Shown here: positions 13,501 through 64,000 of the stretch, in pieces
Layout: each line of letters opens with the position of its first letter
Position numbering within the stretch: the first letter of the stretch is position 1
Source of the DNA: Trichoplax sp. H2
Lineage: Eukaryota
NCBI GenBank assembly: GCA_003344405.1
Contig: NOWV01000128.1
Location: forward strand, 1 to 64,000
Direction of reading: 5' to 3'
Length of the DNA stretch: 64,000 nucleotides
Notes under the pieces: generated by a model
Database searches by the model: none
What the model was told of the DNA's origin: nothing
Seen by the model: only the letters and a program-made list of their open reading frames with translations
Program-made: the position numbers and the translations under genes

Positions 13501-14435
13501 AAAAATATTCGCCCAAATTAGATCTTGTAAGGTCTTTTTAACGCAAATTAATACCAAATGAAATAAGCTTCACCCTTATAATTCGATGAACGCCGCTACT
13601 TATGTAAAAAGTGAGCTCATAATCTAATGATTTGATAAGAAAAATATCATTTTATAAGTTTGACCTTGAATGTAAGTCAAGGTAAGTGAATAATTAATTT
13701 AATTATAATCTATAAAGAAATTGTTGTCGAAAAAATTAACAATGTTCAAGTGATAAATAAGCGTAGCGACACAAATAGTTGAAACTATAATCGTCATTAT
13801 CAATAGCTGTATTATTATGACAGGAACACGTTATATTTTAATATTGACTATTGCGTACTAGCTATAATAGAGCGTTTCAAATGATTAGATAATTATTTCC
13901 TTTATAATAGATAGAATGGAACAATTTGTCCTGTTTTCAATAATTTTATTGGTGTCATAAATAATTTCATAGTATTAATGAGTATTGGAAATGATACTTA
14001 ATCTTCAATTTTTGGCTTTGTCTTACTAAATATAATAGCGGCTAGATAATTGAAAAAATTATCTAGTGGTAGAATAGACTCTTCTTGAGTTTTCAAATTT
14101 AATTGGATGTCTTTGCTTTTTAAAGTTTTTAATAATTTATGCGACCATTACACTACATTATCGGTAATTTTGGTTAGAATAATATTACAGGTAGAATATT
14201 TGAATCAAATTGATTAGCATAATTAGATCAATTATAGAATATTACTTAAATCTATGCTCACAAAGTTGGAGTGAATTAGATTTGTATAATCTAGAAAAGC
14301 AGTAAAATTAATATTGAAGTCCTTGGTAGACATTTCAGTAAATGATATCTTAATATTAAAGCAATAGAAATAAAGTATTTCGTATCCAAGTCAGTTAGAG
14401 AGAAAACATTTCATTCAGGAAGTAAAATTTTCACT

Positions 14436-15569
14436 ATGGCCGTCAATTTATTGGATAAGTCTTCGATAAATCAAAGTCTTCTTAGTGATGAAGACCAATT
14501 TGGACGTGATTGGCATGTAAAACGTTTTATGCATATACTTTATGGCGTGTTAGCTTCTTTGGCCATCTTAGGTAATTTTATGGTATGTTTCGTTATCGTA
14601 ACAACAAAAAATGGGAGAATGATGAAGTCTGGATTAAATTTGCTAATTTTAAGCATGGCTATGATGGATGCAGCTACAGGAATAATGATGTTTGTTGTCC
14701 CTTCATTTGTTGTTCCAGCTGCAGATTACACCTATCCGAGTAATAATATCTCGGGAACGATATTTTGCCGCGTATTTGCTTCGCAATATGCAATTTTTTA
14801 TTTTGGTTTTGGCTCAGTTTTTACCATTACCGCTATTGCTATCGAAAGGTGGATTGCTGTCGCTAGACCATATACATACCGAAATATTGTAACTATAAAA
14901 AGAACTAAACGATTTTTAGTCGGTCTATGGGTATTCAATACTGTTATATCAATTGATATCCTGCTTCAACGAGATTATGATAGCAATGAGCAGCCTCCAT
15001 GCAAATGGAATTCTTTCATTCGACATCCACCAGGGCAATATCTGTTCATTGTAATGGAAATTCTACGTTTATTTCTACCGTTTATCATCATTATAGCATG
15101 TTATATTGACATAATAAGGAGAATTATTACAGCGATACCTGGATTATCGGTGGCCAAGGCCAATTGGAACCGAGCCTCATCTATGTTGGTAATAGTAAGG
15201 AATCCCAGTTCAATCAGAGCTAGACGTAGAGTAACTATCATGGTAGCAATATCAGCTTTAGCTTTTATGATATGTTGGTTACCAAACGAATTCTATTTTA
15301 CGCTATATGTTCTCAATGTTATACCTTATAATATTGATGTCATTCGATTTACCAAGACACTGATTGTAGTAAGCTCATGCTTGAGTCCTCTAATCTATTC
15401 TGCCACTAATGAAGACTATCGGCAAGGTATCTGGGCGCTTGTAAGCAGTTGCAAATTTCGAAAATCACCGCGAATAGATACGAAATACCCCCAAAAAAGT
15501 ATTTTAAATGTAGAAAATAGTAGGAATATTGTAACACAACAGACTCACGAAACTGAAGGAAGCAATTAA
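14436..15569 (+). CDS. Intronless class A (rhodopsin-family) orphan GPCR, copy 1, 377 aa
   Basis: Seven hydrophobic segments; GN in TM1, D in TM2, C at top of TM3, ERW (DRY variant), W in TM4, CWLP in TM6, SPLIY (NPxxY variant). Confidence 0.95.
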   Translation: MAVNLLDKSSINQSLLSDEDQFGRDWHVKRFMHILYGVLASLAILGNFMVCFVIVTTKNGRMMKSGLNLLILSMAMMDAATGIMMFVVPSFVVPAADYTYPSNNISGTIFCRVFASQYAIFYFGFGSVFTITAIAIERWIAVARPYTYRNIVTIKRTKRFLVGLWVFNTVISIDILLQRDYDSNEQPPCKWNSFIRHPPGQYLFIVMEILRLFLPFIIIIACYIDIIRRIITAIPGLSVAKANWNRASSMLVIVRNPSSIRARRRVTIMVAISALAFMICWLPNEFYFTLYVLNVIPYNIDVIRFTKTLIVVSSCLSPLIYSATNEDYRQGIWALVSSCKFRKSPRIDTKYPQKSILNVENSRNIVTQQTHETEGSN

Positions 15570-26100: not shown

Positions 26101-26496
26101 ATCTAACTAAATATATTAGTGATTCATTAGAGGTTGAATAATCCCTTCTTGAATTTAATAATTAAATTAAGTGCTATTGATTTTTTAAACTCTTAAATAT
26201 TTTGTGCGGCCATTACATTGCAATAATAGTAATTTTGTAGAAAAGTGTTGCAGTTAGAATCTTTGATTTAAATTCTGTAGCATAATTAGGTCAATTATAG
26301 AATATTACGCACATTTTTACTCGCAAAAGCGAGGATAGATTAGACGTATATTGTCTAAAATACAATAAAACTAATATTGAAGTCCTTCGCAGACTTTTCA
26401 GTAAATGATATCTTAGCAGTAAAGCGATCGAAAATTAAGTATTTCACATCCAATTTAGTTGAAGAAAATTTTAATTCAGAAAGCAAAACTTTCACT

Positions 26497-27627
26497 ATGG
26501 CGGTAAACATATTGAATAAGTCGATGAATCAGAGTCTTCTTGATGATGAAGATAAATTTGGTCGCGATTGGCATGTAAAACGTTTTATGCATATACTTTA
26601 TGGCGTGTTAGCTTCTTTGGCCATCTTAGGTAATTTAATGGTATGTTTCGTTATCGTAACAACAAAAAATGGGAGAATGATGAAGTCTGGATTAAATTTG
26701 CTGATTTTAAGCATGGCAGTGATGGATGCAGCTACAGGAATAATGATGTTTGTTGTCCCTTCATTTGTTGTTCCAGCTGCAAATTACACTTATCCGAAAA
26801 ACAAAATCTCGGGAACAATATTTTGCCGCGTATTTGCTTCGCAATATGCAATTTTTTATTTTGGTTTTGGCTCAGTTTTTACCATTACCGCTATTGCTAT
26901 CGAAAGGTGGATTGCTGTCGCTAGACCATATACATACCGAAATATTGTAACTATAAAAAGAACTAAACGATTTTTAGTCGGTCTATGGGTATTCAATACT
27001 GTTATATCAATTGATATCCTGCTTCAACGAGATTATGTTAGCAATGAACAGCCTCCATGTAAATGGAATTCTTTCATTCGACATCCACCAGGGATATATC
27101 TGTTCATTGTAATGGAAATTCTACGTTTATTTCTACCGTTTATCATCATTATAGCATGTTATGTTGACATAATAAGAAGAATTATTACAGCTACACCTGC
27201 ATTATCGGTAGCCAAGTCCAATCGGAATCGCGCACCAGCTATGTCAATAGTCGGAAGGAATCACAGTTCAATCAGAGCTAGACGTAGAGTAACTATCATG
27301 GTAGCAATATCAGCTTTAGCTTTTATGATATGTTGGTTACCAAACGAACTCTATTTTACGTTATATGCTCTTAACGCTATATCTTATAATATTGATGTTA
27401 TTCGATTTACCAAGACACTGATTGTCGGTAGTTCATGTTTGAGTCCTCTAATCTATTCTGCCGCTAACGAAGACTATCGACGAGGTATCTGGTCACTTGT
27501 ATGCAATTATAAATTTCGAAAATCCCCACGAATAAGTACAAAATACCCCCGAAGTGTTATTTTAAATGTAGAAAGTAGTAGAAATTTTATAACACAACAA
27601 ACTCCCGAAGCTGAAAGAAGAAATTAA
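26497..27627 (+). CDS. Intronless class A orphan GPCR, copy 2, 376 aa
   Basis: Paralog of 14436-15569 with the same motifs. Start placed at ATG 26497 (TTCACTATGG context, equivalent to copy 1) rather than the upstream TTG of the ORF track. Confidence 0.95.
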   Translation: MAVNILNKSMNQSLLDDEDKFGRDWHVKRFMHILYGVLASLAILGNLMVCFVIVTTKNGRMMKSGLNLLILSMAVMDAATGIMMFVVPSFVVPAANYTYPKNKISGTIFCRVFASQYAIFYFGFGSVFTITAIAIERWIAVARPYTYRNIVTIKRTKRFLVGLWVFNTVISIDILLQRDYVSNEQPPCKWNSFIRHPPGIYLFIVMEILRLFLPFIIIIACYVDIIRRIITATPALSVAKSNRNRAPAMSIVGRNHSSIRARRRVTIMVAISALAFMICWLPNELYFTLYALNAISYNIDVIRFTKTLIVGSSCLSPLIYSAANEDYRRGIWSLVCNYKFRKSPRISTKYPRSVILNVESSRNFITQQTPEAERRN

Positions 27628-38950: not shown

Positions 38951-41800
38951 CGGTAATGGCTATGCTTACCGCTTGTAAAACCAAAAACTGATTGCAGGGA
39001 AATTCTTCAATATCCTTGATATACTCATTGGATCAACATGGATATCCAAGCTTATTCATTATAAAAATAAAAATGTCACCAATAGCAAATTCAATACCGT
39101 CATAAAGCTCGTAACGCTCGCTCGTTCAACTCCTTGCAAATGATGTTGCAAGGAATAAATCGTTCTTCCAATTTCTTTCCAACTGTGTACTACCATGGAC
39201 TCCTAGAAGAAGTCGTGGGCTTCACAGTTTCAACAACTGCGCCACCCAATGATAATAACATCAATCAAATAGGATCACAATTCTTCCTCACACCAAAAAT
39301 TCGGGGTGCAGTACAGTACACTGCACAGCGGGCCAGCAAATGGTCCAAACATTATTGCATAAAGTCGATCAAATTGAATAATTCATATTTTCAGTTAATT
39401 TGTAATGGATACGATCATCTGACTTTCCCACGTTAACCAAATTAGAGTCAGCGAATATTCCCTGACAGTGCAAATGTCCCTCAATGAAGCATCCCTATAA
39501 AGTAGGCTTCCAATTTGCTTGCTATAATGAAAGCAACCATCACAAGATAGGAATATTCATTCCAGTTTTAATAAGGGTTCATTTTTACTGTCAGGGTTGA
39601 TAGTCAATGAATCACGTTGTCCCACTGGCTACTCTATAGCGTGTATTAGAATCAGCTCATATATTCAATAGTCAAAATACGATAAAGCTGTCAATATCGT
39701 ACAATTAACCGAGAATGGCTGTATATCTACTAAGACTACACAAGGGTAATATGAATTTTATATATCTACGGAAATACTCCATCCATGGATGCCGATACAC
39801 GTACAATCTGGACAAAACTGATAACAAGAAAGAGAGATTGACGACCAACTTAATTGCACGCTGTTGACAACCATTAAGTAACAAAATAGGCTACAGAATA
39901 GGGAACAGTGTCTGCAAGAAGTTCTCCAGCAAATGTAAAGACAGCGCATTAGCAAAGCATAGAACCTTATTAAGACTTGTACATGCGAACTAATAAAATA
40001 GGACAGCAACGCTCATATTTAGAATCGATCATGGAATATTCTAGAACTTATTAGTAGTTATTACCACATAGACATACAATGAGTATTCTACAAGGTTCTA
40101 CATGCATACGAGGCTCAAATACTTGCGCATCTAAGACTGAGCCTTACGAAATCGCTCTACTAATACGATGGCAGTTGCCAATTTAAGCATACTGTATTTC
40201 GACTTTAAATACCATAATGGAACTTATAATTCAATCAATTATGGTGATCATTGCCATTGCTATTGACACAAAATCATAATTCAACATTTGCAAATCAACT
40301 CATTTAGTCCTTCTCTTGACACTGTAGTATTGAAAAACTGGGATTACACCATGATTATAAAGCAAAGTGTACGCGTCATTGGCAATACTGAAATATAAAA
40401 AATGAATAGCGATTAAATGGCGTGGCGTCATTATTTGCGTTCATAATTTTGAATCATCAACTAATAAATATTGGATAACGAAATAAAACTTGATATTAAG
40501 TAGGAAGAGTTAGAATGTATCCACCATTACAATTGTATCGCCTGTTGTTACAGGGATAATAAATAAAATTGCTGACATTTCTCTTTTCATTTTTTGATAC
40601 TTGCATTTACAAGAGGAACATACGAGTATGCTATACTGAGCGCCAGAAATACAACTTTTCTGCTAGACTTAAAGAACCTACAAATAGAAAATGACTATAC
40701 CTACGCCATGTTTCCTATTATTCAACTTTCCATTAGTATACCTGAAATGGACCAGCTGTCAAAATGTGCAACAAGGATATATTTCATAAATGCGCTATAT
40801 AGTCCCTTTACATACATCAACCACGATCCGAGTCAATCAACAACATTTTTCAATTGAATAATTGGCTCCTCAGTTTTAAGGCAAGTTATAAAGTAAGAAC
40901 TAAGACTTTCTCTTAAGGCTAATGAATCCTAAATGAATAAGACTTGGTCAGAAATGCTTCTGTCTTTCTATTAAAATGTCAGCTTTAAATTTAAATCACA
41001 CACATATACGAGAGGTACTGTGCTCTAAAATAGAGAAAGAACTAAAATCGATGCAGCTTTCTAACAAAGGAATTAGAATTACTACTACAGTATTTACGAT
41101 TTGTTGAGCTAATGGTAGCTAGTTAAAACACCACTAATCATTTAATTAATGAATCACCTTAGCAATGATGTTATTAGTATGTTTTGACAACGGATTTTCA
41201 TATTAATAATATATTACGTAAGCGTGATTGATGCATAACAATGATCCCATAGTCTCTTTATTTGTTACTAAAATGTTTAGTGATCTAGAATAATGCAACC
41301 AGTCAGCTATTTAGGATAAATCAATTTTACATACGTACAGTAGATTAACTTTTCATAACATTGCTATAAAATTGAATTCCAATTAAAAGAATTCTATTTC
41401 TAAAGCAGTCATAACGAGCTTATATTACTGATACTGCATATAAATAGATAATGGGCCAACAATAAAAGAAAAACTCCATTTAAACTTTATTAAGCTATTT
41501 TAACTAAAAGAATTTAGCTTTAAAAATTCAGTTGAATTTTGTTACTTCGTAGAAAATTATCAGCATTTTATTCTCACCATTACTTCCGCAATTAGGAAAA
41601 ATTGATTACATAACATATAGTATTACTATTATAGGCTACAGTTAAAGTCCAAACCGCGTACGGCATGGTTAACCATCAACCGCTGAATTCAATTATCAGG
41701 AAAGATATATGCAACCGTTACTTTGTATAACAAGCTTAGACGCTGGGTATAACGAATCAGCAATCATCGCTTTCAATTTTATTGATCTGCATACACAATC

Positions 41801-42847
41801 ATGCCTGTAATTGTCCGGCATGCCATCAACTTAACAGTTTCAAATAATAATTTTAGTTATCATTCTAATGGCATTGATTACAATTTAATCCACACGTATG
41901 CTTCTATGGGTGCAATTCCGATCTTTTTACTCGGAGCAGTTGCTAATATTTTCATTTTATATGTCATCGCCATTTATTCCAAATTTCGGAAAAGAATTTA
42001 CAATTTAATATGCGTTACGGTAATATCTGATATACTATCAACATTGATATGCAGTATTAGTTATATTCTAGTAGTAGCAATCAATGTTCAACACTTGCTT
42101 GGTAGAGTGCTATGTAGAGTACTCGTATTTATAGTCATGACATCCTATGGTATCTCTATCTTAACGCTAAGCGCTATTGCTTTAGATCGCCTTCAAGCTA
42201 TCACAAAACCGATTACTTTTATTTACTGGAGGCGTAAATATAAAATCATGATCATCTCTCAAGTATTAATTTGGACTATATCGATAGCCGTATCATCACC
42301 CTTTTTAATCTTTATTGATACTTACCCAGATGAAGGAAAATTTTGTGATTTTCCAACTATTACAGCAGTTAATAGTCTCTTTTTTATTATATTAACATTA
42401 TGCTATTTTGTTGTTCCTTCCACTATATTCATTGTTTCATACAGCAAAATTATCAAATACATGAAAAGTTATACTCCACCGGGCCAATTAAACTTTAATC
42501 AAGACCAAAGTCAGAAAAAGAAAAATTTTATTAAAATGTTGATACTAATTACTGCTTCTCATCTTCTTATTACTTGGCCATATTTTGCTACTAATATTGG
42601 TATGGCCATCAATCGATATTCCTTAAGACAATTGCGTCAAAATCATTTTGTGTACTATTTGTTAGCCTTTTTCTCTTACGCAACAACGACGGCAGTTAGT
42701 GTGGCCAATCCATTCTTATTTTTGAAATTTGATGCGAATATCCGGGCAAAATCTTGGGAAATTATCAAACGACTTGCAATCGCTAATTGCTGCTATCCAT
42801 CAATTTCAGCAGTTACACCTATTACAGAATGTCCGGTGCCCTCATAG
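41801..42847 (+). CDS. Intronless class A orphan GPCR, 348 aa (not closely related to the duplicated pair)
   Basis: Seven TM segments; N-glycosylation sequons in the N-terminus (NLT, NFS), AN in TM1, SD in TM2, C-R at TM3, DRL, W in TM4, TWPY in TM6, NPFLF in TM7. Confidence 0.93.
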   Translation: MPVIVRHAINLTVSNNNFSYHSNGIDYNLIHTYASMGAIPIFLLGAVANIFILYVIAIYSKFRKRIYNLICVTVISDILSTLICSISYILVVAINVQHLLGRVLCRVLVFIVMTSYGISILTLSAIALDRLQAITKPITFIYWRRKYKIMIISQVLIWTISIAVSSPFLIFIDTYPDEGKFCDFPTITAVNSLFFIILTLCYFVVPSTIFIVSYSKIIKYMKSYTPPGQLNFNQDQSQKKKNFIKMLILITASHLLITWPYFATNIGMAINRYSLRQLRQNHFVYYLLAFFSYATTTAVSVANPFLFLKFDANIRAKSWEIIKRLAIANCCYPSISAVTPITECPVPS

Positions 42848-57820: not shown

Positions 57821-58228
57821 CTTGGTGGGGAGATCAACGCGATCGACGTGAGTGTACAGTACAGTGCGAGTGGTGCTTTGAATTTGTATAGTAAAACACA
57901 CGTTGAGCGTCCCTGCCGCAGGTTGGTACTGTACACTCGGTGCACTGTACTTCGTGTCCAGCGTCCACTGTCCAGTACGTACAGAACAGATGTCGCAAGT
58001 TCAAGTAGTATTGTTATGCAATGTGAAGACAAACTACGACATCTGTTAGACACCTCTAGGGAATGGAAACTGGACTGGGCAACTTCTCACTCCAATTCCA
58101 TTTCTTGTCTTGCAGTTTTCTCTTGGACCATCGCAGTTTCAACTCGTTTTCAACCTTAATAATGACGGTGCAATGTAGTCGGTGAATGTATCTTATGGTA
58201 CATACGATATGAGGTAGAGACGGGTAGT

Positions 58229-58961
58229 CAAAAAGCCTCTTGTACAACCAGCAACTTGTAAAATGACCAGAGTGATAGTATGGAGCCATGGACTACTGCG
58301 ATACCGTATCTAGTAGTCGAAGATCGACGATCTACTGTACACACAAGATGCAAAACATTGCATAGCAGATATTCAAAAAGTCTCATGTGCAACCAGCAAC
58401 TTGCAAAAAGACGAGTGATAGCATGGAGCCATGGACTACTGCGATACTGTATCTAGTAGTCGAAGATCGACGATCTACTTTACTATACTGTACACGCAAG
58501 ATGCAAAACATTGCATAGCAGATATTCAAAAAGTCTCTTATACAACCAGCAAACTTGCAAAAAGACGAGTGATAGCATGGAGCCATGGACTACTGCGATA
58601 CTGTATCTAGTAGTCGAAGATCGACGATCTACTGTACACACAAGATGCAAAACATTGCATAGCAGATATTCAAAAAGTCTCATGTACAACCGGCAACTTG
58701 CAAAATGACGAGTGATAGCGTGGAGCCATGGACTACTGCGATACTGTATCTAGTAGTCGAAGATCGACGATCTACTGTACACACAAGATGCAAAACATTG
58801 CATAGCAGATATTCAAAAAGTCTCATGTACAACCAGCAACTTGCAAAATGACGAGTGATAGCATGGAGCCATGGACTACTGCGACACTGTATCTAGTAGT
58901 CGAAGATCGACGATCTACTGTACTGTACACGCAAGATGCAAAACAGTGCATAGCAGTTATT
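58229..58961. repeat. Tandem repeat, 5 copies of a ~143-153 bp unit
   Basis: Units start CAAAAAG at 58229, 58374, 58527, 58671, 58814, with near-identical core GGAGCCATGGACTACTGCGATACTGTATCTAGTAGTCGAAGATCGACGATCTACT. Confidence 0.97.
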
Positions 58962-59914
58962 ATCGCGGAATCTGAAAGAAGTTTTGAAACATGCATAAAA
59001 AAGGAATTCAGTCTAACGATTGATTTATTAATGTAGGATTAGGGTAATGGAGGGCATCAGTAAGACTAATAATAGTATGAAGTGATAAAGAGCTGTGGTA
59101 ATATTTGTCTCGACAAATTGACTAGTTGAAGGCCTAAAATTGCTAAACTTGGACGTAGACCGGTGCCGAGTGCATGCATGTGTTCTAGCCCCATGCACGC
59201 TGATAATATCGCGTATCGCTATAATAAAACCGTTGGGAATGGACTGCAATTGGATCGGCTGGCAATCAATGAATTGGATAGCTTTCTCGTATAATCCTTA
59301 TTCTAGTTGAAATGCATTGATACGCATACATGCAATTATAGAAGTATGGTACTGTAAAGAGAAGCAAGTACATTAACATTCTACGCGTATTTCAAGTTTA
59401 TACATATATAGTCATATACGTTGTAAGACGAAATCAGCTCAATACAAACGCTAAAATAGAAGAACTGTTGAAAAAATGAAATAATCCAATGCGACGTTAG
59501 ACTGCAAGTGATGATTAATAGCTGACTTTCGAGAACTGTTGTTTAAAATGTACTGGATAATGCATACGAAGTTCTAATGTACAATCTATTCAGTTTTGGC
59601 TCGGTATGCCTTAAAGTAGAAATAAGGCTTTCAGTAGATCAAATGATAAAATCCACCACGACACCGATATCTGAACTTTGATAACTATTAATATATAATT
59701 AACACCGTATAAAAATTAAAGACATTGCGATATTTATAGCTAAATCTCGAAAAGCATACAAAAGCACATGGTTTCAAAATTGAAACAAACACTGGTTACA
59801 ATTCTTTTTTTTCTAGTATCACAACTACAACAATGATAAAGTGAAGCTATTTTTTTAACGTTATTTCTAAGTTAAAATAGGAATTTGTCTTAATCAACCA
59901 CGAAGTAAAGGCAT

Positions 59915-62900
59915 TTAAACACTGTTACTGTTGGTAATAAGGGACGGAAATAAGTAGGCGTAATTTAAATGCCCATCCGCTACGTTTTGTAGGTTGGTAG
60001 CAATTAGACTAGCTTCTAAAGTACTGGACTGAGCAGCAAAGCTGGTAACTAATGCTTGTGCTGGTGGGTCTTCAATGTCAGCTCCATAGTCAAGAAGGCT
60101 ATCATGGCGTAATGTAGTTTGCAAATTTGCAAAATTCACTTGAGTCTGTAACAAGAAATTGAATGGATGGTTTATCATATTCGTAACGTTAGTACGACTG
60201 CTACACATCAAAGTTTTATTGGTTACGCGTATAATCTCTTACATTCATTTAATCTTTATACTTACGATAGATTGCGAACCAGTAGGGAATCGTTCTGGCT
60301 GAAATCCAGCAACACCATCGACATCGTAATATTTTCCAGGCATATTAGGTACAAAGGATGCATACTCAAGCAGTGGATAATTGACAGCCGCGTGCTGACC
60401 AGATGCAGTCCATAAAATCAAGTGGATGGCATTGATCAGTTGACGTCTATTTTGAAACGCTGGAGGAAAATCTTTTATCTGTTCAATAAATTAAAACTGA
60501 AGTTGTTATTTAACGTAAAGGATAAAGCAAGAATTGAGCTTATAACGAAAATGGGCGCCTATTTACCTTGCCATTAGCGGAGTTTGGAGTGCCTGTTGCC
60601 TCATTGGACAACTCATCAGCCCAGGCTTGTAATTCAAAATCGTTGACAACATCCGCATCGCTATCATAGTATCTAACAAACGAAGAATATTATTAGAATG
60701 GCATGAATAATTTCAGCAATATCATATTTGATAGCATATGAATGTACAAAATAGGATACATATACGAGTATTTAGCTAGCCCGTTAGACCTACAGAATCG
60801 TAACGTATTATTAAGAATTGATAAAATTGAACGAAAGTAGACAACGTTTGCCAATTAATTGGATAAGTACGTTATGGCGTATGAATTTTCTTAATTAATT
60901 TTAAAGCTACTATTAATCCTGAATTATTTTTACTTAGCACTTTACTCAAAAATTAAATCATTAAACCAAAGATTTCGTCATTATCAAATTAACCGGTATA
61001 TCAGTATGCTATGATAATTCGCACTAGGCATCAATACATTATACCCGTATACATATTTATTAACATAGCACAAAGTGATAGTGTTATGAATTATAAATTT
61101 AAGAATATGAGAGAAGTATTGTACCATATACATCTTAAGTTGTAAAGTACTTTACGTATATATTAAGAACAGCATACTATAGCTAGTAAATAACTTACAA
61201 TGAAATATATTGTTCCGTAAAGTCTCGTAACAGATCAAAGACTTTCTTGCCGTCATCACGATATGGATAATAAGGTAAGATAGTTTCATCTGTTACACCT
61301 TGTTTCTGTATATGTCAATAAAGTACGGGAATCAAAAATTAGGATTTCCCTGCTGTAGTTACAAAAGCTGCTTCTACTTTGTTCATAATTTTAAAACTGT
61401 AGCATTCTATGTAGATGGAAGAAGGATGCAATACTCTGACAGCGGAAAGTAATATATGATACATTCTGTATATCTTACTCGTAAACGTTCAAATGTGTCC
61501 AAATCGTTAAAAGAGAACGAATTGTGTTGCTGATTTATCAATTCCGTAAAGCCTGCAAAGCCGGCAGTGGCTATATTGTCATATTGGCCAAATTGAGGGA
61601 TATGACTTAGCTCTACAAATTTGTTCAAGGTTAACGTGCCTACGCAATGACGGCGTAAAATTTGGCGTAACGGATGCTTTAAGGGCAAGTGTCGATTACC
61701 AACAACGCAGACTGGATCCATTAAGAATTGAGTTTTTAAGAGATGTTCAACAAGTTGACTAGAGACATATGTCGCTAATTGAGCTCGAGTTTTAGCAATA
61801 GACCAGTTATCGCCATCAGCAGGGGTAAAAACTGAGGACGTTGGTGTGCTATCCATCTGAATTGCAACTGGCAGTAATTGACCATTATTGACATCGGGAT
61901 TAGATACGAATATAGCAATTGGCGATGAGGTATTTTGCATTGTTCTATTATCAGTGGGTACTTCGTTGATGTCAGGTCCTTGCGGAAGTGCTCGTAATTC
62001 TGGAAATTGCATTACGAAGATACGACCATCTTCCAAAGCCTAATTTATTTTATGTTTACACAATTTACACAGTTATCATCGATGACAATAATTATCCAAG
62101 GAAGCTCAATTATCACTACAATAACAGTAACATGATAAATAACTTTCTTACTTGATTTACAGTATTACCAAATGTTTGCGAATTCAATTTGGACTCAATT
62201 GCATTCTTCCAACCAAAATCAGGATTTAAGAAAGGTTTTAACTCAGAAACCTTAGTACCATCGAAAATAGCATCTAAGTAGGACCAAATGTTTATTAAAA
62301 AATTTAGTGCTGTAAAGAAATTGAGGCATAAATTTTTACTGCTATGGTTTTGTAACCTAACTTCGTATACTTGCATATCTGTGTTACGGTTTGAGCATTA
62401 TTAAAAGGAAATATTAAGAGATATCCATGTATGAAAGATGTAGTACGGTATATCTTACAAGTATTATTCGCTCCGTGTGGCTCTATCAAGTATATTGTAC
62501 AGGGTATATCAAAATGGAATTATTTATTTCTGTCTTACCTCTCTGACAAACAACTTTCCAGACAGGCTTAAAGCAGCTAGTATAAAACAAGCGCAAGCCA
62601 TATCGCGAAAAACGAGCTGATAAGCACTTTCGGAAGTAGCTTGGTGTGTTGTAAGAATTTTCAACGGTAGTACCATCCAGCCACTTACCATATTTTGCTC
62701 CCACATAGACACGTGAGTACCATGTTTTGAAGTACTTATTAACAAGTTTAGCTTCCGTAGGATCCGACAATATTGGTAAACGGCCATGATTACATTTGCA
62801 CTTATATTGAGCAATATGCCAGTTTGTGTAATGATATGGACGAAAGGCTTTATAGCAATGTTTACCAATTAATTTCCAACCCTGTGGACAAGCTACATGT

Positions 62901-63174
62901 ACATACAAGATTTAATATTTTGGTTGCTTAATTCAAGTTACCATTACCGGTAATTAAGATCTGATTAGCAGATCGGGTAATTTTGGAGAACGTGTTATTA
63001 TTAACAAATTACTCATAAATAATGTGATTAAAGCTACTTCAACTTACATGATTTGAAAACTCTGGATAGCTGCAAGGGATGTAATCCTGCCAAACGCTGC
63101 TCTGCAAAGACTTTATCATCCGAGAAATTATCAATGATTAGATCACTAGGCATCGTGAGTTGATTTCCTAGTGC
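59915..63174 (-). CDS. Lipoxygenase-family gene (5' exons not resolved) with an internal C-type lectin-like exon
   Basis: Exons 63174-63048, 62892-62539 (CTLD), 62273-62152, 62039-61479, 61305-61199, 60672-60567, 60478-60266, 60145-59915, all in phase. LOX motifs DKVFAEQRLAGLHP, LLPVAIQ, WSIAK, HLLKTQF, RHLPLKHPL, YPYRDDG, DFELQAW, TASGQHAAVN, FVPNMP, and terminal YLFPSLITNSNSV*. Confidence 0.9.
62539..62892 (-). CDS. C-type lectin-like domain exon (354 nt, phase 1-1) within the lipoxygenase gene
   Basis: CPQGWKLIGKHCY...W..AQ.KC....GRL...VYVG...WLDGT...KC...TSC......VC is the long-form CTLD pattern. Flanked by an AG acceptor (plus-strand CT at 62893-62894) and a GTAAG donor. Confidence 0.88.
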
Positions 63175-64000
63175 CTAAAGTAATGAATTTACAAAGCATG
63201 AATAGGTTTAGCTAAGTTTGCTATCAGTAAAAATTTCTTGATTGATAGTATGCTCTTAAAATAATTACATAGTATATGATTATACTAAAATATAGCATCC
63301 TATCAAAGTCGCTAAATCCAATTAGCTGACTTATCCATTTTTACCAATAAATTTCGTGGTGCAGCTAATTACGATCACTGCATAAACTTATTTTAGCATG
63401 ATAAATTATAACTCAGTATTATAGCAGTATACCATTGTATGTAATTATGACTAAGTCTAATAGTATCAGAACTAATATCTATGTTGTTTCTTTATCTTTG
63501 CTTGCATTCAATTCACATTATATGATGCTTATGTACTTTATATTTCTGCATTGCATTTGTACTATCCTTCACATAGGTTGCACTCTACTGTTGATTAGTA
63601 TAACAGTAACTCACATTCCCAAATTACAGTTTGAGACTCAAAATTCTTTGAGTTTACCATTAATTCATTACAGCCTGTCATCAATTGATTTCAAGATTTC
63701 AATCTTAGCTGTATACTAACTTAGATGAATTTAATCAACAAAAAAATAAAATTAAAATTAAATTAATAGCCTGATCGACACTCGAGGGCTTAGCCACACC
63801 CGAGGTCATAATTCGAGGACAATTTAGTATGCTGATTATTTTGACGCATGCGTCCATTAAGCGGAAGGTATATTTCTTTTCACGATATAGTTCCGCAAAT
63901 TTTCCTTTCTAGATATTATTTGCCAGCCGGACTAGAGATTTCTCCGCCTTTACCACTCCCATCTATTATTTAAAACTAATATTGAATGCGATCTGCTTTT

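What the first reader, a model, noticed from the sequence alone, without database searches (positions are those of the whole stretch)
62152..63174. C-type lectin domain exon inserted inside a lipoxygenase catalytic domain
Seen in sequence: the exon at 63174-63048 encodes the LOX motif D..FAEQRLAGLHP...RVFKS and ends in phase 1. The next exon (62892-62539, 118 codons, phase 1-1) is a complete CTLD. The following exon resumes LOX sequence (DAIFDGTKVSELKPFLNPDFGW...ALEDGRIF). Established: the F..QRLAG.(N/H)P motif and the G.(L/I)F segment both belong to the catalytic domain and are normally joined by a short variable region, and known animal LOX accessory domains (PLAT; the catalase-like AOS of coral AOS-LOX) are N-terminal, not internal. 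Inference: exon shuffling produced a lectin-lipoxygenase chimera that could couple surface recognition (food, microbes, membranes) to lipid binding or oxylipin chemistry. Because the exon is symmetric, skipping it keeps the frame, so isoforms with and without the lectin are possible.
Basis: partly seen in the sequence, partly recalled or inferred. Interest (0 to 1): 0.88.

Follow-up and report, generated by a model that had tools for sequence, protein, structure and literature searches.

The report
C-type lectin-like domain inside placozoan lipoxygenase
A Trichoplax lipoxygenase-family gene really does carry a whole lectin-like domain, encoded by one exon, spliced into the middle of its catalytic domain, an arrangement not described for this well-studied enzyme family.

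Summary
The window is Trichoplax DNA. RNA contigs from three studies carry the joints 63048>62892 and 62539>62273, with GT..AG ends on the minus strand. The 354-nt phase 1-1 exon therefore sits in frame inside a lipoxygenase (LOX) transcript.

The exon encodes a compact C-type lectin-like domain (CTLD). All 55 PDB matches I recognise as CTLD proteins, best E 6.7e-8. Seven Cys are conserved. No EPN, QPD or WND sugar/Ca motif is present.

A 50-53%-identical paralog, TRIADDRAFT_60389 and its Trichoplax sp. H2 ortholog, has the same insert. The nearest relatives are anthozoan LOX without PLAT that carry EGF, EMI-like, TSP1 or FN2 modules. They lack the CTLD and have exactly 118 fewer residues at this spot. 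One Montipora LOX has an FN2 domain in the same loop.

The window copy has Gln at the second iron-ligand His, unique among 154 aligned rows, so its catalysis is doubtful. No exon-skipping isoform was seen. Public gene models already contain the exon, but their precomputed Pfam lists show only LOX, and six literature searches found no description. I rate it a new variant of a known kind.

The parts
63048..63174 (-). LOX exon with the F.EQRLAGLHP motif; ends in phase 1. Its 5' neighbour exon lies beyond the window end.
   Evidence: Joint 62892/63048 and loose end at 63175 in X12, X6 and X7.
62893..63047 (-). Intron, 155 nt, GT..AG.
   Evidence: skips 155, CT..AC on + strand.
62539..62892 (-). 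CTLD exon: 354 nt, 118 codons, phase 1-1. Compact long-form C-type lectin-like domain with 7 Cys and no EPN, QPD or WND.
   Evidence: Both joints in three RNA runs.
62274..62538 (-). Intron, 265 nt, GT..AG.
62152..62273 (-). LOX exon resuming after the insert (DAIFDG..LNPDFGW..).
61479..62039 (-). Large LOX exon (ALEDGRIF..). Carries the iron-ligand helix EHLLKTQ, with the Gln codon CAA at 61730-61728 where relatives have His.
61199..61305 (-). LOX exon.
60567..60672 (-). LOX exon.
60266..60478 (-). LOX exon with the QHAAVNY ligands (His, Asn).
59915..60145 (-). Last coding exon. Ends ..TNSNSV followed by the stop codon. RNA contigs run on through at least 59300 (3' UTR).

Best explanation
Exon 62892-62539 is a regular exon of a Trichoplax lipoxygenase-family gene, present in the only spliced form that the RNA contigs show. 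It places a compact, disulfide-rich C-type lectin-like domain (CTLD) into a loop of the catalytic domain. The loop lies between the QRLAG.NP segment and the strands that lead to the G-R-I-F segment.

Origin. The insert arose by exon shuffling of a phase 1-1 module. This happened before the duplication that gave the two placozoan copies, TRIADDRAFT_60387 (this gene) and 60389.

Family. The host belongs to a clade of LOX-like proteins from sponge, placozoans and cnidarians that lack a PLAT domain. The members read in full start with a hydrophobic signal-peptide-like stretch and carry extracellular modules: EGF, EMI-like, TSP1, FN2 and, here, CTLD.

Inferred mechanism. The protein is secreted. 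The CTLD acts as a Ca-independent binding module for a protein, surface or particle rather than as a sugar lectin. It docks the LOX body on an extracellular target such as prey or microbial membranes or matrix, which is the job PLAT does on membranes in classical LOX.

This copy. It has Gln at the second iron-ligand His, so it probably has weak or no dioxygenase activity and may act as a lipid-binding pseudo-enzyme. The paralog keeps all ligands.
For: Shown:
- Splice joints and single contigs across the CTLD and LOX exons in 3 of 3 RNA-like runs from 3 studies.
- An open 606-codon frame with GT-AG borders throughout.
- CTLD identity: 55 PDB hits, all recognised as CTLD proteins, best E 6.7e-8. 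In the paralog this region hits NKG2-D at 1.4e-5.
- The paralog has the same insert at the same place, 47% identical, with 7 of 7 Cys conserved.
- None of the 150 best LOX representatives matches the CTLD segment.
- Spacing is 142 residues in placozoans, 22-24 in 24 cnidarian or unnamed rows, and 81 in Montipora P0012 with FN2, PF00040 E 5.2e-16.
- In the tree the two placozoan rows are sisters (SH-aLRT 99) inside a 17-row set with cnidarian LOX (96).
- The paralog model has pLDDT above 90 on both sides of the insert and TM 0.82-0.83 to CspLOX2, a LOX without PLAT.
- No PLAT hit in P0004 or the cnidarian relatives. EGF, EMI (weak), TSP1 and FN2 hits are found instead.
- The second-His column reads H in 151 rows, Q in 2 (both this gene) and D in 1.
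- Strain differences in the LOX exons are 8 synonymous to 1 non-synonymous.

Inferred: secretion, the targeting role, and the loss of catalysis.
Against: - The N-terminus of the window gene lies off the window, so its signal peptide is not seen. Signal peptides of relatives were judged by eye only.
- The CTLD fold could not be confirmed by prediction: alone it gave pLDDT 38, and inside P0004 its 10-residue blocks average 43-76. Its position relative to the substrate channel is therefore unknown.
- Pfam Lectin_C is 0.1 bit under its cut-off for the exon, 19 bits for P0003, and absent for P0004.
- Strain differences in the CTLD exon are 3 non-synonymous to 1 synonymous. The numbers are small, but this could mean relaxed constraint.
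- Gln can in principle bind metal, so loss of activity is not proven.
- No ligand, activity or cell type is known.
Confidence: 0.7

Rival explanations
1. The CTLD exon is a cassette exon. Isoforms with and without the domain are both made, and skipping regulates targeting.
For: The exon is phase 1-1, so skipping keeps the frame. The Montipora protein with the FN2 insert is labelled 'isoform X2' by its source, which hints that inserts in this loop can be alternative.
Against: No joint 63048>62273 is listed in any of the four runs laid. Three RNA-like runs all show the inclusion joints. Contigs cannot show rare isoforms, so this is weak evidence.
Confidence: 0.15
2. The CTLD is a true Ca-dependent sugar-binding lectin that recognises glycans on food or microbes.
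For: Homology to CTLDs of lectins and receptors.
Against: EPN, QPD and WND are absent in both paralogs, and WIGL is degenerate. The domain is short, and the stretch between the WIGL-like segment and the third canonical Cys is too short for the usual long-loop Ca site (my reading of the sequence). Many of the best PDB matches, as I recall their biology, are protein-binding CTLDs: snaclecs, KLRG1, NKG2-D.
Confidence: 0.1
3. The insert is an internal regulatory lid. The CTLD sits over the substrate entrance and gates lipid access, or replaces catalysis with ligand sensing, rather than targeting the protein.
For: The insert lies in the catalytic domain rather than at an end. It is kept at the same site in both paralogs, and another module (FN2) chose the same loop.
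Against: The position relative to the channel cannot be read from a low-confidence CTLD. The N- and C-terminal strands of CTLDs pair (recalled knowledge), which makes any exposed loop a permissive site. That alone can explain reuse of the loop.
Confidence: 0.15
4. The window copy is a decaying duplicate with no function of its own.
For: His to Gln at an iron ligand, unique among 154 aligned rows. C-terminal Val instead of Ile.
Against: The 606-codon frame is open and all splice sites are intact. The gene is transcribed in three studies at contig depths of about 50-240. LOX-exon differences between strains are 8 synonymous to 1 non-synonymous. Other clade members also end in T, S or V.
Confidence: 0.07

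Closest known systems
Coral 11R-LOX and 8R-LOX (PDB 3VF1, 2FNQ, 3FG1; the LOX half of AOS-LOX)
   Same: Best sequence matches among solved structures for the paralog's catalytic domain, E 1e-49 to 7e-47. Same helical LOX fold.
   Different: Those enzymes have an N-terminal PLAT/C2-like domain, plus a catalase-like AOS in the fusion, and only about 18 residues where the placozoan proteins have the 118-residue CTLD (alignment). P0004 has no PLAT or catalase hit, so the source name 'allene oxide synthase-lipoxygenase' is not borne out.
Cyanothece CspLOX2 mini-lipoxygenase (PDB 5MED)
   Same: Best structural match of the P0004 model, TM 0.82-0.83 normalised to the target. [quoted passage not shown] Its iron is held by three His, one Asn and the C-terminal carboxylate (PMC5437038, passages read).
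   Different: It is bacterial, has no inserted domain and no extracellular modules, and ends in Ile. The window protein has Gln at the position aligned with its second His ligand.
Anthozoan LOX-like proteins without PLAT (Nematostella P0159, Exaiptasia P0007 and P0175, Acropora P0010, Stylophora P0011, Oculina P0192, Montipora P0012)
   Same: Nearest relatives at 32-36% identity. They share the LN..F.W motif and C-termini ending in T or S. Those whose full sequences I read start with a hydrophobic N-terminus, and they carry EGF or EMI-like modules. P0012 has a domain (FN2) inserted in the same loop.
   Different: None has a CTLD. Spacing at the loop is 22-24 residues against 142.
Compact C-type lectin-like domains that do not bind sugar (NK receptors KLRG1 and NKG2-D; snake-venom snaclecs)
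   Same: Sequence matches over most of the domain (KLRG1 covers residues 2-111 of 118). Long-form N-terminal Cys pair plus the C1-C4 pattern, with no Ca or sugar motifs.
   Different: Those are free-standing or terminal domains of receptors and toxins. Here the domain is nested inside an enzyme fold and has one extra conserved Cys.
Secreted bacterial LOX of Pseudomonas aeruginosa (PDB 4G32)
   Same: A LOX without PLAT that works outside the cytosol on membrane phospholipids (recalled). It is a structural match to the model.
   Different: It has no animal-type modules and is bacterial. The functional parallel is an analogy only.

Membership tests
Lipoxygenase (PF00305) | Profile match above the curated cut-off | tested here: met
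   Window exons E 6.6e-11 and 1.5e-8. P0003 4e-37 and P0004 2.5e-39.
Lipoxygenase (PF00305) | Metal ligands: His, His (helix HxxxxH), His, Asn/His/Ser, and the C-terminal carboxylate | tested here: not met
   The window gene reads H-Q-H-N and ends in Val. The second-His column is H in 151 rows, Q in 2 rows (both this gene) and D in 1. Paralog P0004 reads H-H-H-N. No RNA contig differs at the Gln codon 61730-61728.
Lipoxygenase (PF00305) | LOX helical fold | tested here: met
   Tested for paralog P0004 only. The model has mean pLDDT 79.9 with catalytic parts above 90, and TM 0.82-0.83 to 5MED. The window protein itself was not folded.
Lipoxygenase (PF00305) | Dioxygenation of polyunsaturated fatty acids | not testable with these tools
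   Needs recombinant protein, metal analysis and an activity assay.
Classical animal LOX (PLAT + LOX) | N-terminal PLAT/LH2 beta-barrel | tested here: not met
   No PF01477 hit in P0004 or in the cnidarian relatives scanned (P0007, P0159, P0010-P0012, P0175, P0029, P0014, P0017, P0025, P0034, P0192, P0221) or in Sycon P0037. PLAT is found in the more distant P0051 and P0115. The N-terminus of the window gene is off the window.
AOS-LOX fusion (name a source gives to P0004) | Catalase-like allene oxide synthase domain | tested here: not met
   P0004 shows only PF00305 and a weak CTLD-like hit at E<=0.1.
C-type lectin-like domain (PF00059 / CTLD fold) | Profile or sequence match to CTLDs | tested here: met
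   Pfam 22.5 bits against a cut-off of 22.6, E 2e-4, so marginal. By phmmer against PDB, 55 of 55 hits at E<=1 are proteins I recognise as CTLDs, best 6.7e-8. P0004's region hits NKG2-D at 1.4e-5 and UL45 CTLD-like at 0.0022.
C-type lectin-like domain (PF00059 / CTLD fold) | Conserved Cys framework (C0-C0' plus C1-C4) | tested here: met
   Cys at 2, 13, 32, 34, 90, 107 and 116 in both paralogs. The assignment to C0, C0' and C1-C4 is my reading. Cys34 is an extra.
C-type lectin-like domain (PF00059 / CTLD fold) | Predicted CTLD fold | tested here: inconclusive
   Exon alone: pLDDT 38.3 with 3 sequences. Inside P0004, 10-residue block means are 43-76, with a strand-strand-helix-helix...strand order that fits but is not reliable.
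Ca-dependent carbohydrate-binding C-type lectins | EPN or QPD motif plus WND motif | tested here: not met
   None of EPN, QPD, EPS, QPN, WND or WIGL occurs in either CTLD. The meaning of these motifs is recalled knowledge.

The most novel reading that the evidence does not exclude
Placozoans and cnidarians hold a clade of secreted, mosaic LOX-like proteins in which PLAT is replaced by extracellular binding modules. In this clade one loop of the catalytic domain took up whole modules by exon shuffling at least twice independently: a CTLD in placozoans and an FN2 in a Montipora coral. The window copy, with Gln at an iron ligand, would then be a lipid-binding pseudo-lipoxygenase that acts as a receptor or opsonin rather than as an oxygenase.
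Probability: 0.3. Interest if true: 0.72.

Novelty: new variant of a known kind. Interest (0 to 1): 0.6.

Why it matters
Lipoxygenases are a textbook family, and the accessory domains I know of in it (PLAT, the catalase-like AOS) sit at the N-terminus. Here a complete extracellular module is nested inside the catalytic domain, is transcribed, and is kept in two old paralogs. A coral relative has a different module in the same loop.

Three things follow:
- An early-branching animal lineage appears to have turned a lipid oxygenase scaffold into secreted mosaic proteins.
- It is a clean natural case of domain insertion by a symmetric exon.
- It names a permissive loop that could be used to engineer LOX fusions.

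The precomputed Pfam lists for both public proteins show only PF00305. A Pfam-based architecture search would therefore not reveal the arrangement.

Tried and rejected
- **Whole genome of the window:** not held, so the 5' exons and the neighbouring paralog could not be read.
- **Upstream exons:** tblastn of the P0004 N-terminus found no exon in 63175-64000. The RNA contigs splice from 63175 to sequence outside the window.
- **Word-index searches:** the P0004 insert region found only itself, and the CTLD exon found only P0003. These searches are too insensitive to say anything about rarity.
- **AlphaFold2 of the CTLD exon alone:** pLDDT 38.3, unusable, so I made no fold search with it.
- **ESM Atlas:** no usable hit.
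- **Earlier findings of this scan:** nothing.
- **Literature:** searches returned no paper describing a CTLD or any internal domain in a LOX. Their 'lipoxygenase' mentions, where I checked them, concern the PLAT domain name. Two searches for 'PDZ-like' LOX subdomain wording found nothing, so I name no subdomain for the loop.
- **Skip isoform:** none listed in contigs. This is no evidence of absence.
- **Run X4:** it crosses introns at a depth of about 7 and looks like DNA or unspliced RNA, so I did not use it as RNA evidence.
- **Nested separate CTLD gene:** rejected, because single contigs join the CTLD exon to LOX exons on both sides.
- **Annotation artefact:** rejected for the CTLD exon. 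However, the public model P0003 is wrong elsewhere. It starts at an internal Met, and it replaces part of exon 62039-61479 with a short unrelated stretch.
Full report
**1. What is there**

The window is placozoan DNA. The 210-residue frame 62039-61407 (minus strand) is 100% identical, over the 65% it shares, to TRIADDRAFT_60387 of Trichoplax adhaerens (P0003, 550 aa). It is 53% identical to a Trichoplax sp. H2 protein (P0004, 884 aa).

- 63174-63048 reads ..FAEQRLAGLHPLQLSRVFKS.
- 62892-62539 is 354 nt and open in the phase-1 frame.
- 62273-62152 resumes the lipoxygenase (LOX) sequence.

**2. Is the CTLD exon in the mRNA?**

Yes. I laid the contigs of four public runs on 59300-64000. X12 (RNA on record), X6 and X7 (RNA guessed) come from three studies. 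Each shows seven joints with CT..AC ends on the + strand, which is GT..AG on the minus strand:
- 62892/63048
- 62273/62539
- 62038/62151 (cut +1)
- 61305/61479
- 60672/61199
- 60478/60567
- 60145/60266

The listed pieces of single contigs (X6 record 16, 2118 nt; X7 record 20, 1298 nt) lie on the LOX exon 63175-63048, the C-type lectin-like domain (CTLD) exon and the large LOX exon. No joint that skips the CTLD exon is listed, although contigs cannot show rare forms. The fourth run, X4, crosses introns at low depth and looks like DNA, so I did not count it.

Joining the exons at these joints gives an open frame of 606 codons ending in a stop at 59915. All borders are AG/GT, and the CTLD exon is phase 1-1.

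At 63175 all three RNA runs splice to sequence that is not in the window. X6 carries 816 further nucleotides. Read by hand, the 30-letter loose end continues the frame with residues that resemble the stretch of P0004 just before its NDLIID segment. This is my own reading, not a tool result. So the gene's 5' part lies beyond position 64000. The Met at which the public model P0003 starts is internal. P0003 also replaces part of exon 62039-61479 with a short unrelated stretch.

**3. What the exon encodes**

- Pfam Lectin_C scores 22.5 bits (E 2e-4) for the exon, 0.1 bit under its cut-off. It scores 19 bits for P0003 and gives no hit for P0004.
- phmmer against all PDB sequences gives 55 matches at E<=1. 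I recognise all of them as CTLD proteins: mannose-receptor-family FcRY (6.7e-8), snaclecs, CLEC4, KLRG1 (covering residues 2-111), NKG2-D, CD23 and others.
- The paralog's insert hits NKG2-D at 1.4e-5.
- The two paralogous inserts are 47% identical. All seven Cys (2, 13, 32, 34, 90, 107, 116) are conserved. This fits the long-form CTLD framework plus one extra Cys.
- EPN, QPD and WND are absent and WIGL is degenerate. By recalled knowledge of these motifs, Ca-dependent sugar binding is unlikely. 'C-type lectin-like domain' is the accurate name.
- Structure prediction did not settle the fold. The exon alone gave pLDDT 38.3. Within P0004 the insert's 10-residue blocks average 43-76.

**4. The host protein and its relatives**

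A full HMMER scan with P0004 found 2620 LOX relatives, of which I examined the best 150. None of the 150 matches the CTLD segment at E<=10.

The nearest named relatives are anthozoan LOX from Exaiptasia, Nematostella, Acropora, Stylophora, Montipora, Actinia and Oculina. Next come a scyphozoan (Sanderia), a sponge (Sycon) and then bacterial LOX such as Nitrospira.

I built a quick maximum-likelihood tree of 38 rows that I chose: the named clade members plus a subset of representatives P0013-P0045. It puts the window protein and P0004 as sisters (SH-aLRT 99). They sit inside a 17-row set with 15 cnidarian or unnamed rows (96), and Sycon joins at the next node (98).

Features of the clade:
- No PLAT hit in any member scanned.
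- EGF in P0007 and P0221; EMI in P0159 (weak, below cut-off); TSP1 plus FN2 in P0034.
- Hydrophobic N-termini that look like signal peptides, by eye only, in the members whose full sequences I read.
- C-termini ending in T, S or V rather than the usual Ile.

The P0004 model has pLDDT above 90 across the catalytic parts on both sides of the insert. It matches the PLAT-less Cyanothece CspLOX2 best, with TM 0.82-0.83 normalised to the target. The LOX fold is therefore predicted intact, with the CTLD as an excursion from it.

**5. The insertion event**

Of 104 proteins carrying a QRLAG.NP-type motif, 28 also have an LN..F.W-type motif downstream. The spacing between the two motifs is:
- 22-24 residues in 24 rows (cnidarian or unnamed);
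- 142 in the 3 placozoan rows, which represent two genes;
- 81 in Montipora P0012.

142 minus 24 is 118, exactly the codon count of the exon.

P0012 carries a fibronectin type II domain (PF00040, E 5.2e-16, residues 195-234) at the same loop, within about two residues of the CTLD site. Its sister Oculina P0192 has no insert. So the loop took up a module at least twice.

The placozoan insert predates the duplication that gave TRIADDRAFT_60387 and 60389. Both lie on one 1.6-Mb scaffold, and their locus numbers are two apart. Symmetric phase 1-1 exons are the classical vehicle of module shuffling in extracellular animal proteins (recalled knowledge).

**6. Catalytic residues**

CspLOX2 binds iron with three His, one Asn and the C-terminal carboxylate (PMC5437038, passages read). 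In an alignment of 156 rows the four side-chain ligand columns are almost invariant. The window gene reads H-Q-H-N. At the second His, 151 rows have H, two have Q (the window protein and P0003, which are the same gene) and one fragment has D.

The Gln codon CAA at 61730-61728 shows no variant in the RNA contigs that cover it. P0004 keeps H-H-H-N. The EGF-bearing Exaiptasia subclade (P0007, P0221) has lost two ligands (K-H-H-T), so loss of ligands recurs in this clade.

From recalled mutagenesis of soybean LOX-1 and human 5-LOX, His-to-Gln at this position abolishes iron binding and activity. I could not check those papers here.

The gene is not decaying. Of 13 exonic differences between the window and the RNA contigs, the LOX exons show 8 synonymous to 1 non-synonymous. 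The CTLD exon shows 1 to 3, all conservative changes (A/V, T/A, S/T).

**7. Mechanism: what is shown and what is inferred**

Shown:
- A CTLD is nested in frame in a transcribed LOX-like protein.
- The insert is conserved in a paralog.
- It is derived relative to cnidarian relatives.
- The host clade lacks PLAT and carries extracellular modules.

Inferred:
- The protein is secreted.
- The CTLD is a Ca-independent binding module that docks the LOX body on an extracellular target, replacing PLAT-type membrane targeting.
- The window copy is catalytically weak or dead and may act through lipid binding. The paralog may be the active enzyme.

A role in attacking prey or microbial membranes outside the animal, by analogy with secreted bacterial LOX, is speculation.

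**8. Novelty**

The exon has been in public gene models since the first Trichoplax annotation, so the sequence itself is not new. The precomputed Pfam lists for both proteins show only PF00305.

Six full-text searches found no paper describing this architecture or any internal domain in a LOX. The library lacks most subscription journals, and supplements were closed. A mention in a LOX evolution review or a placozoan atlas table therefore cannot be excluded.

I rate it a new variant of a known kind, of moderate to good interest.

Noticed in passing
P0012 (Montipora capricornis LOX-like protein), residues 195-234: A fibronectin type II domain (PF00040, E 5.2e-16) is inserted in the same catalytic-domain loop that holds the CTLD in Trichoplax. 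Its sister protein from Oculina (P0192) has no insert.
   Followed up: partly
P0007 and P0221 (Exaiptasia and an unnamed relative): This EGF-bearing LOX-like subclade has lost two of the four side-chain iron ligands (K-H-H-T), which suggests pseudo-enzymes within the clade.
   Followed up: partly
P0034 (unnamed, 912 aa): A LOX-like protein of the same clade with N-terminal TSP1 and FN2 domains. This is further evidence that the clade collects extracellular modules.
   Followed up: partly
window 58228-58961: A tandem array of five 143-bp units (91% matches) lies just downstream of the LOX gene. RNA contigs that cover the 3' end of the gene run on towards it (X12 record 1 has 551 nt beyond 59300).
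   Followed up: partly
window 14346-15569, 26359-27627 and 41786-42847 (+ strand): Three long open frames without internal stops encode rhodopsin-family GPCRs (PF00001, E 5e-31, 5e-33 and 3e-28). The first two are close tandem duplicates.
   Followed up: partly
P0003 (TRIADDRAFT_60387) compared with window 61479-61640: The public gene model is truncated at an internal Met. It also leaves out part of the large LOX exon that the RNA contigs include, replacing it with a short unrelated stretch.
   Followed up: yes
window 62656, 62725, 62847: Three of the four amino-acid differences between the window and RNA contigs of other strains fall in the 118-codon CTLD exon. This could mean relaxed or diversifying selection on the insert, but the numbers are too small to judge.
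   Followed up: partly
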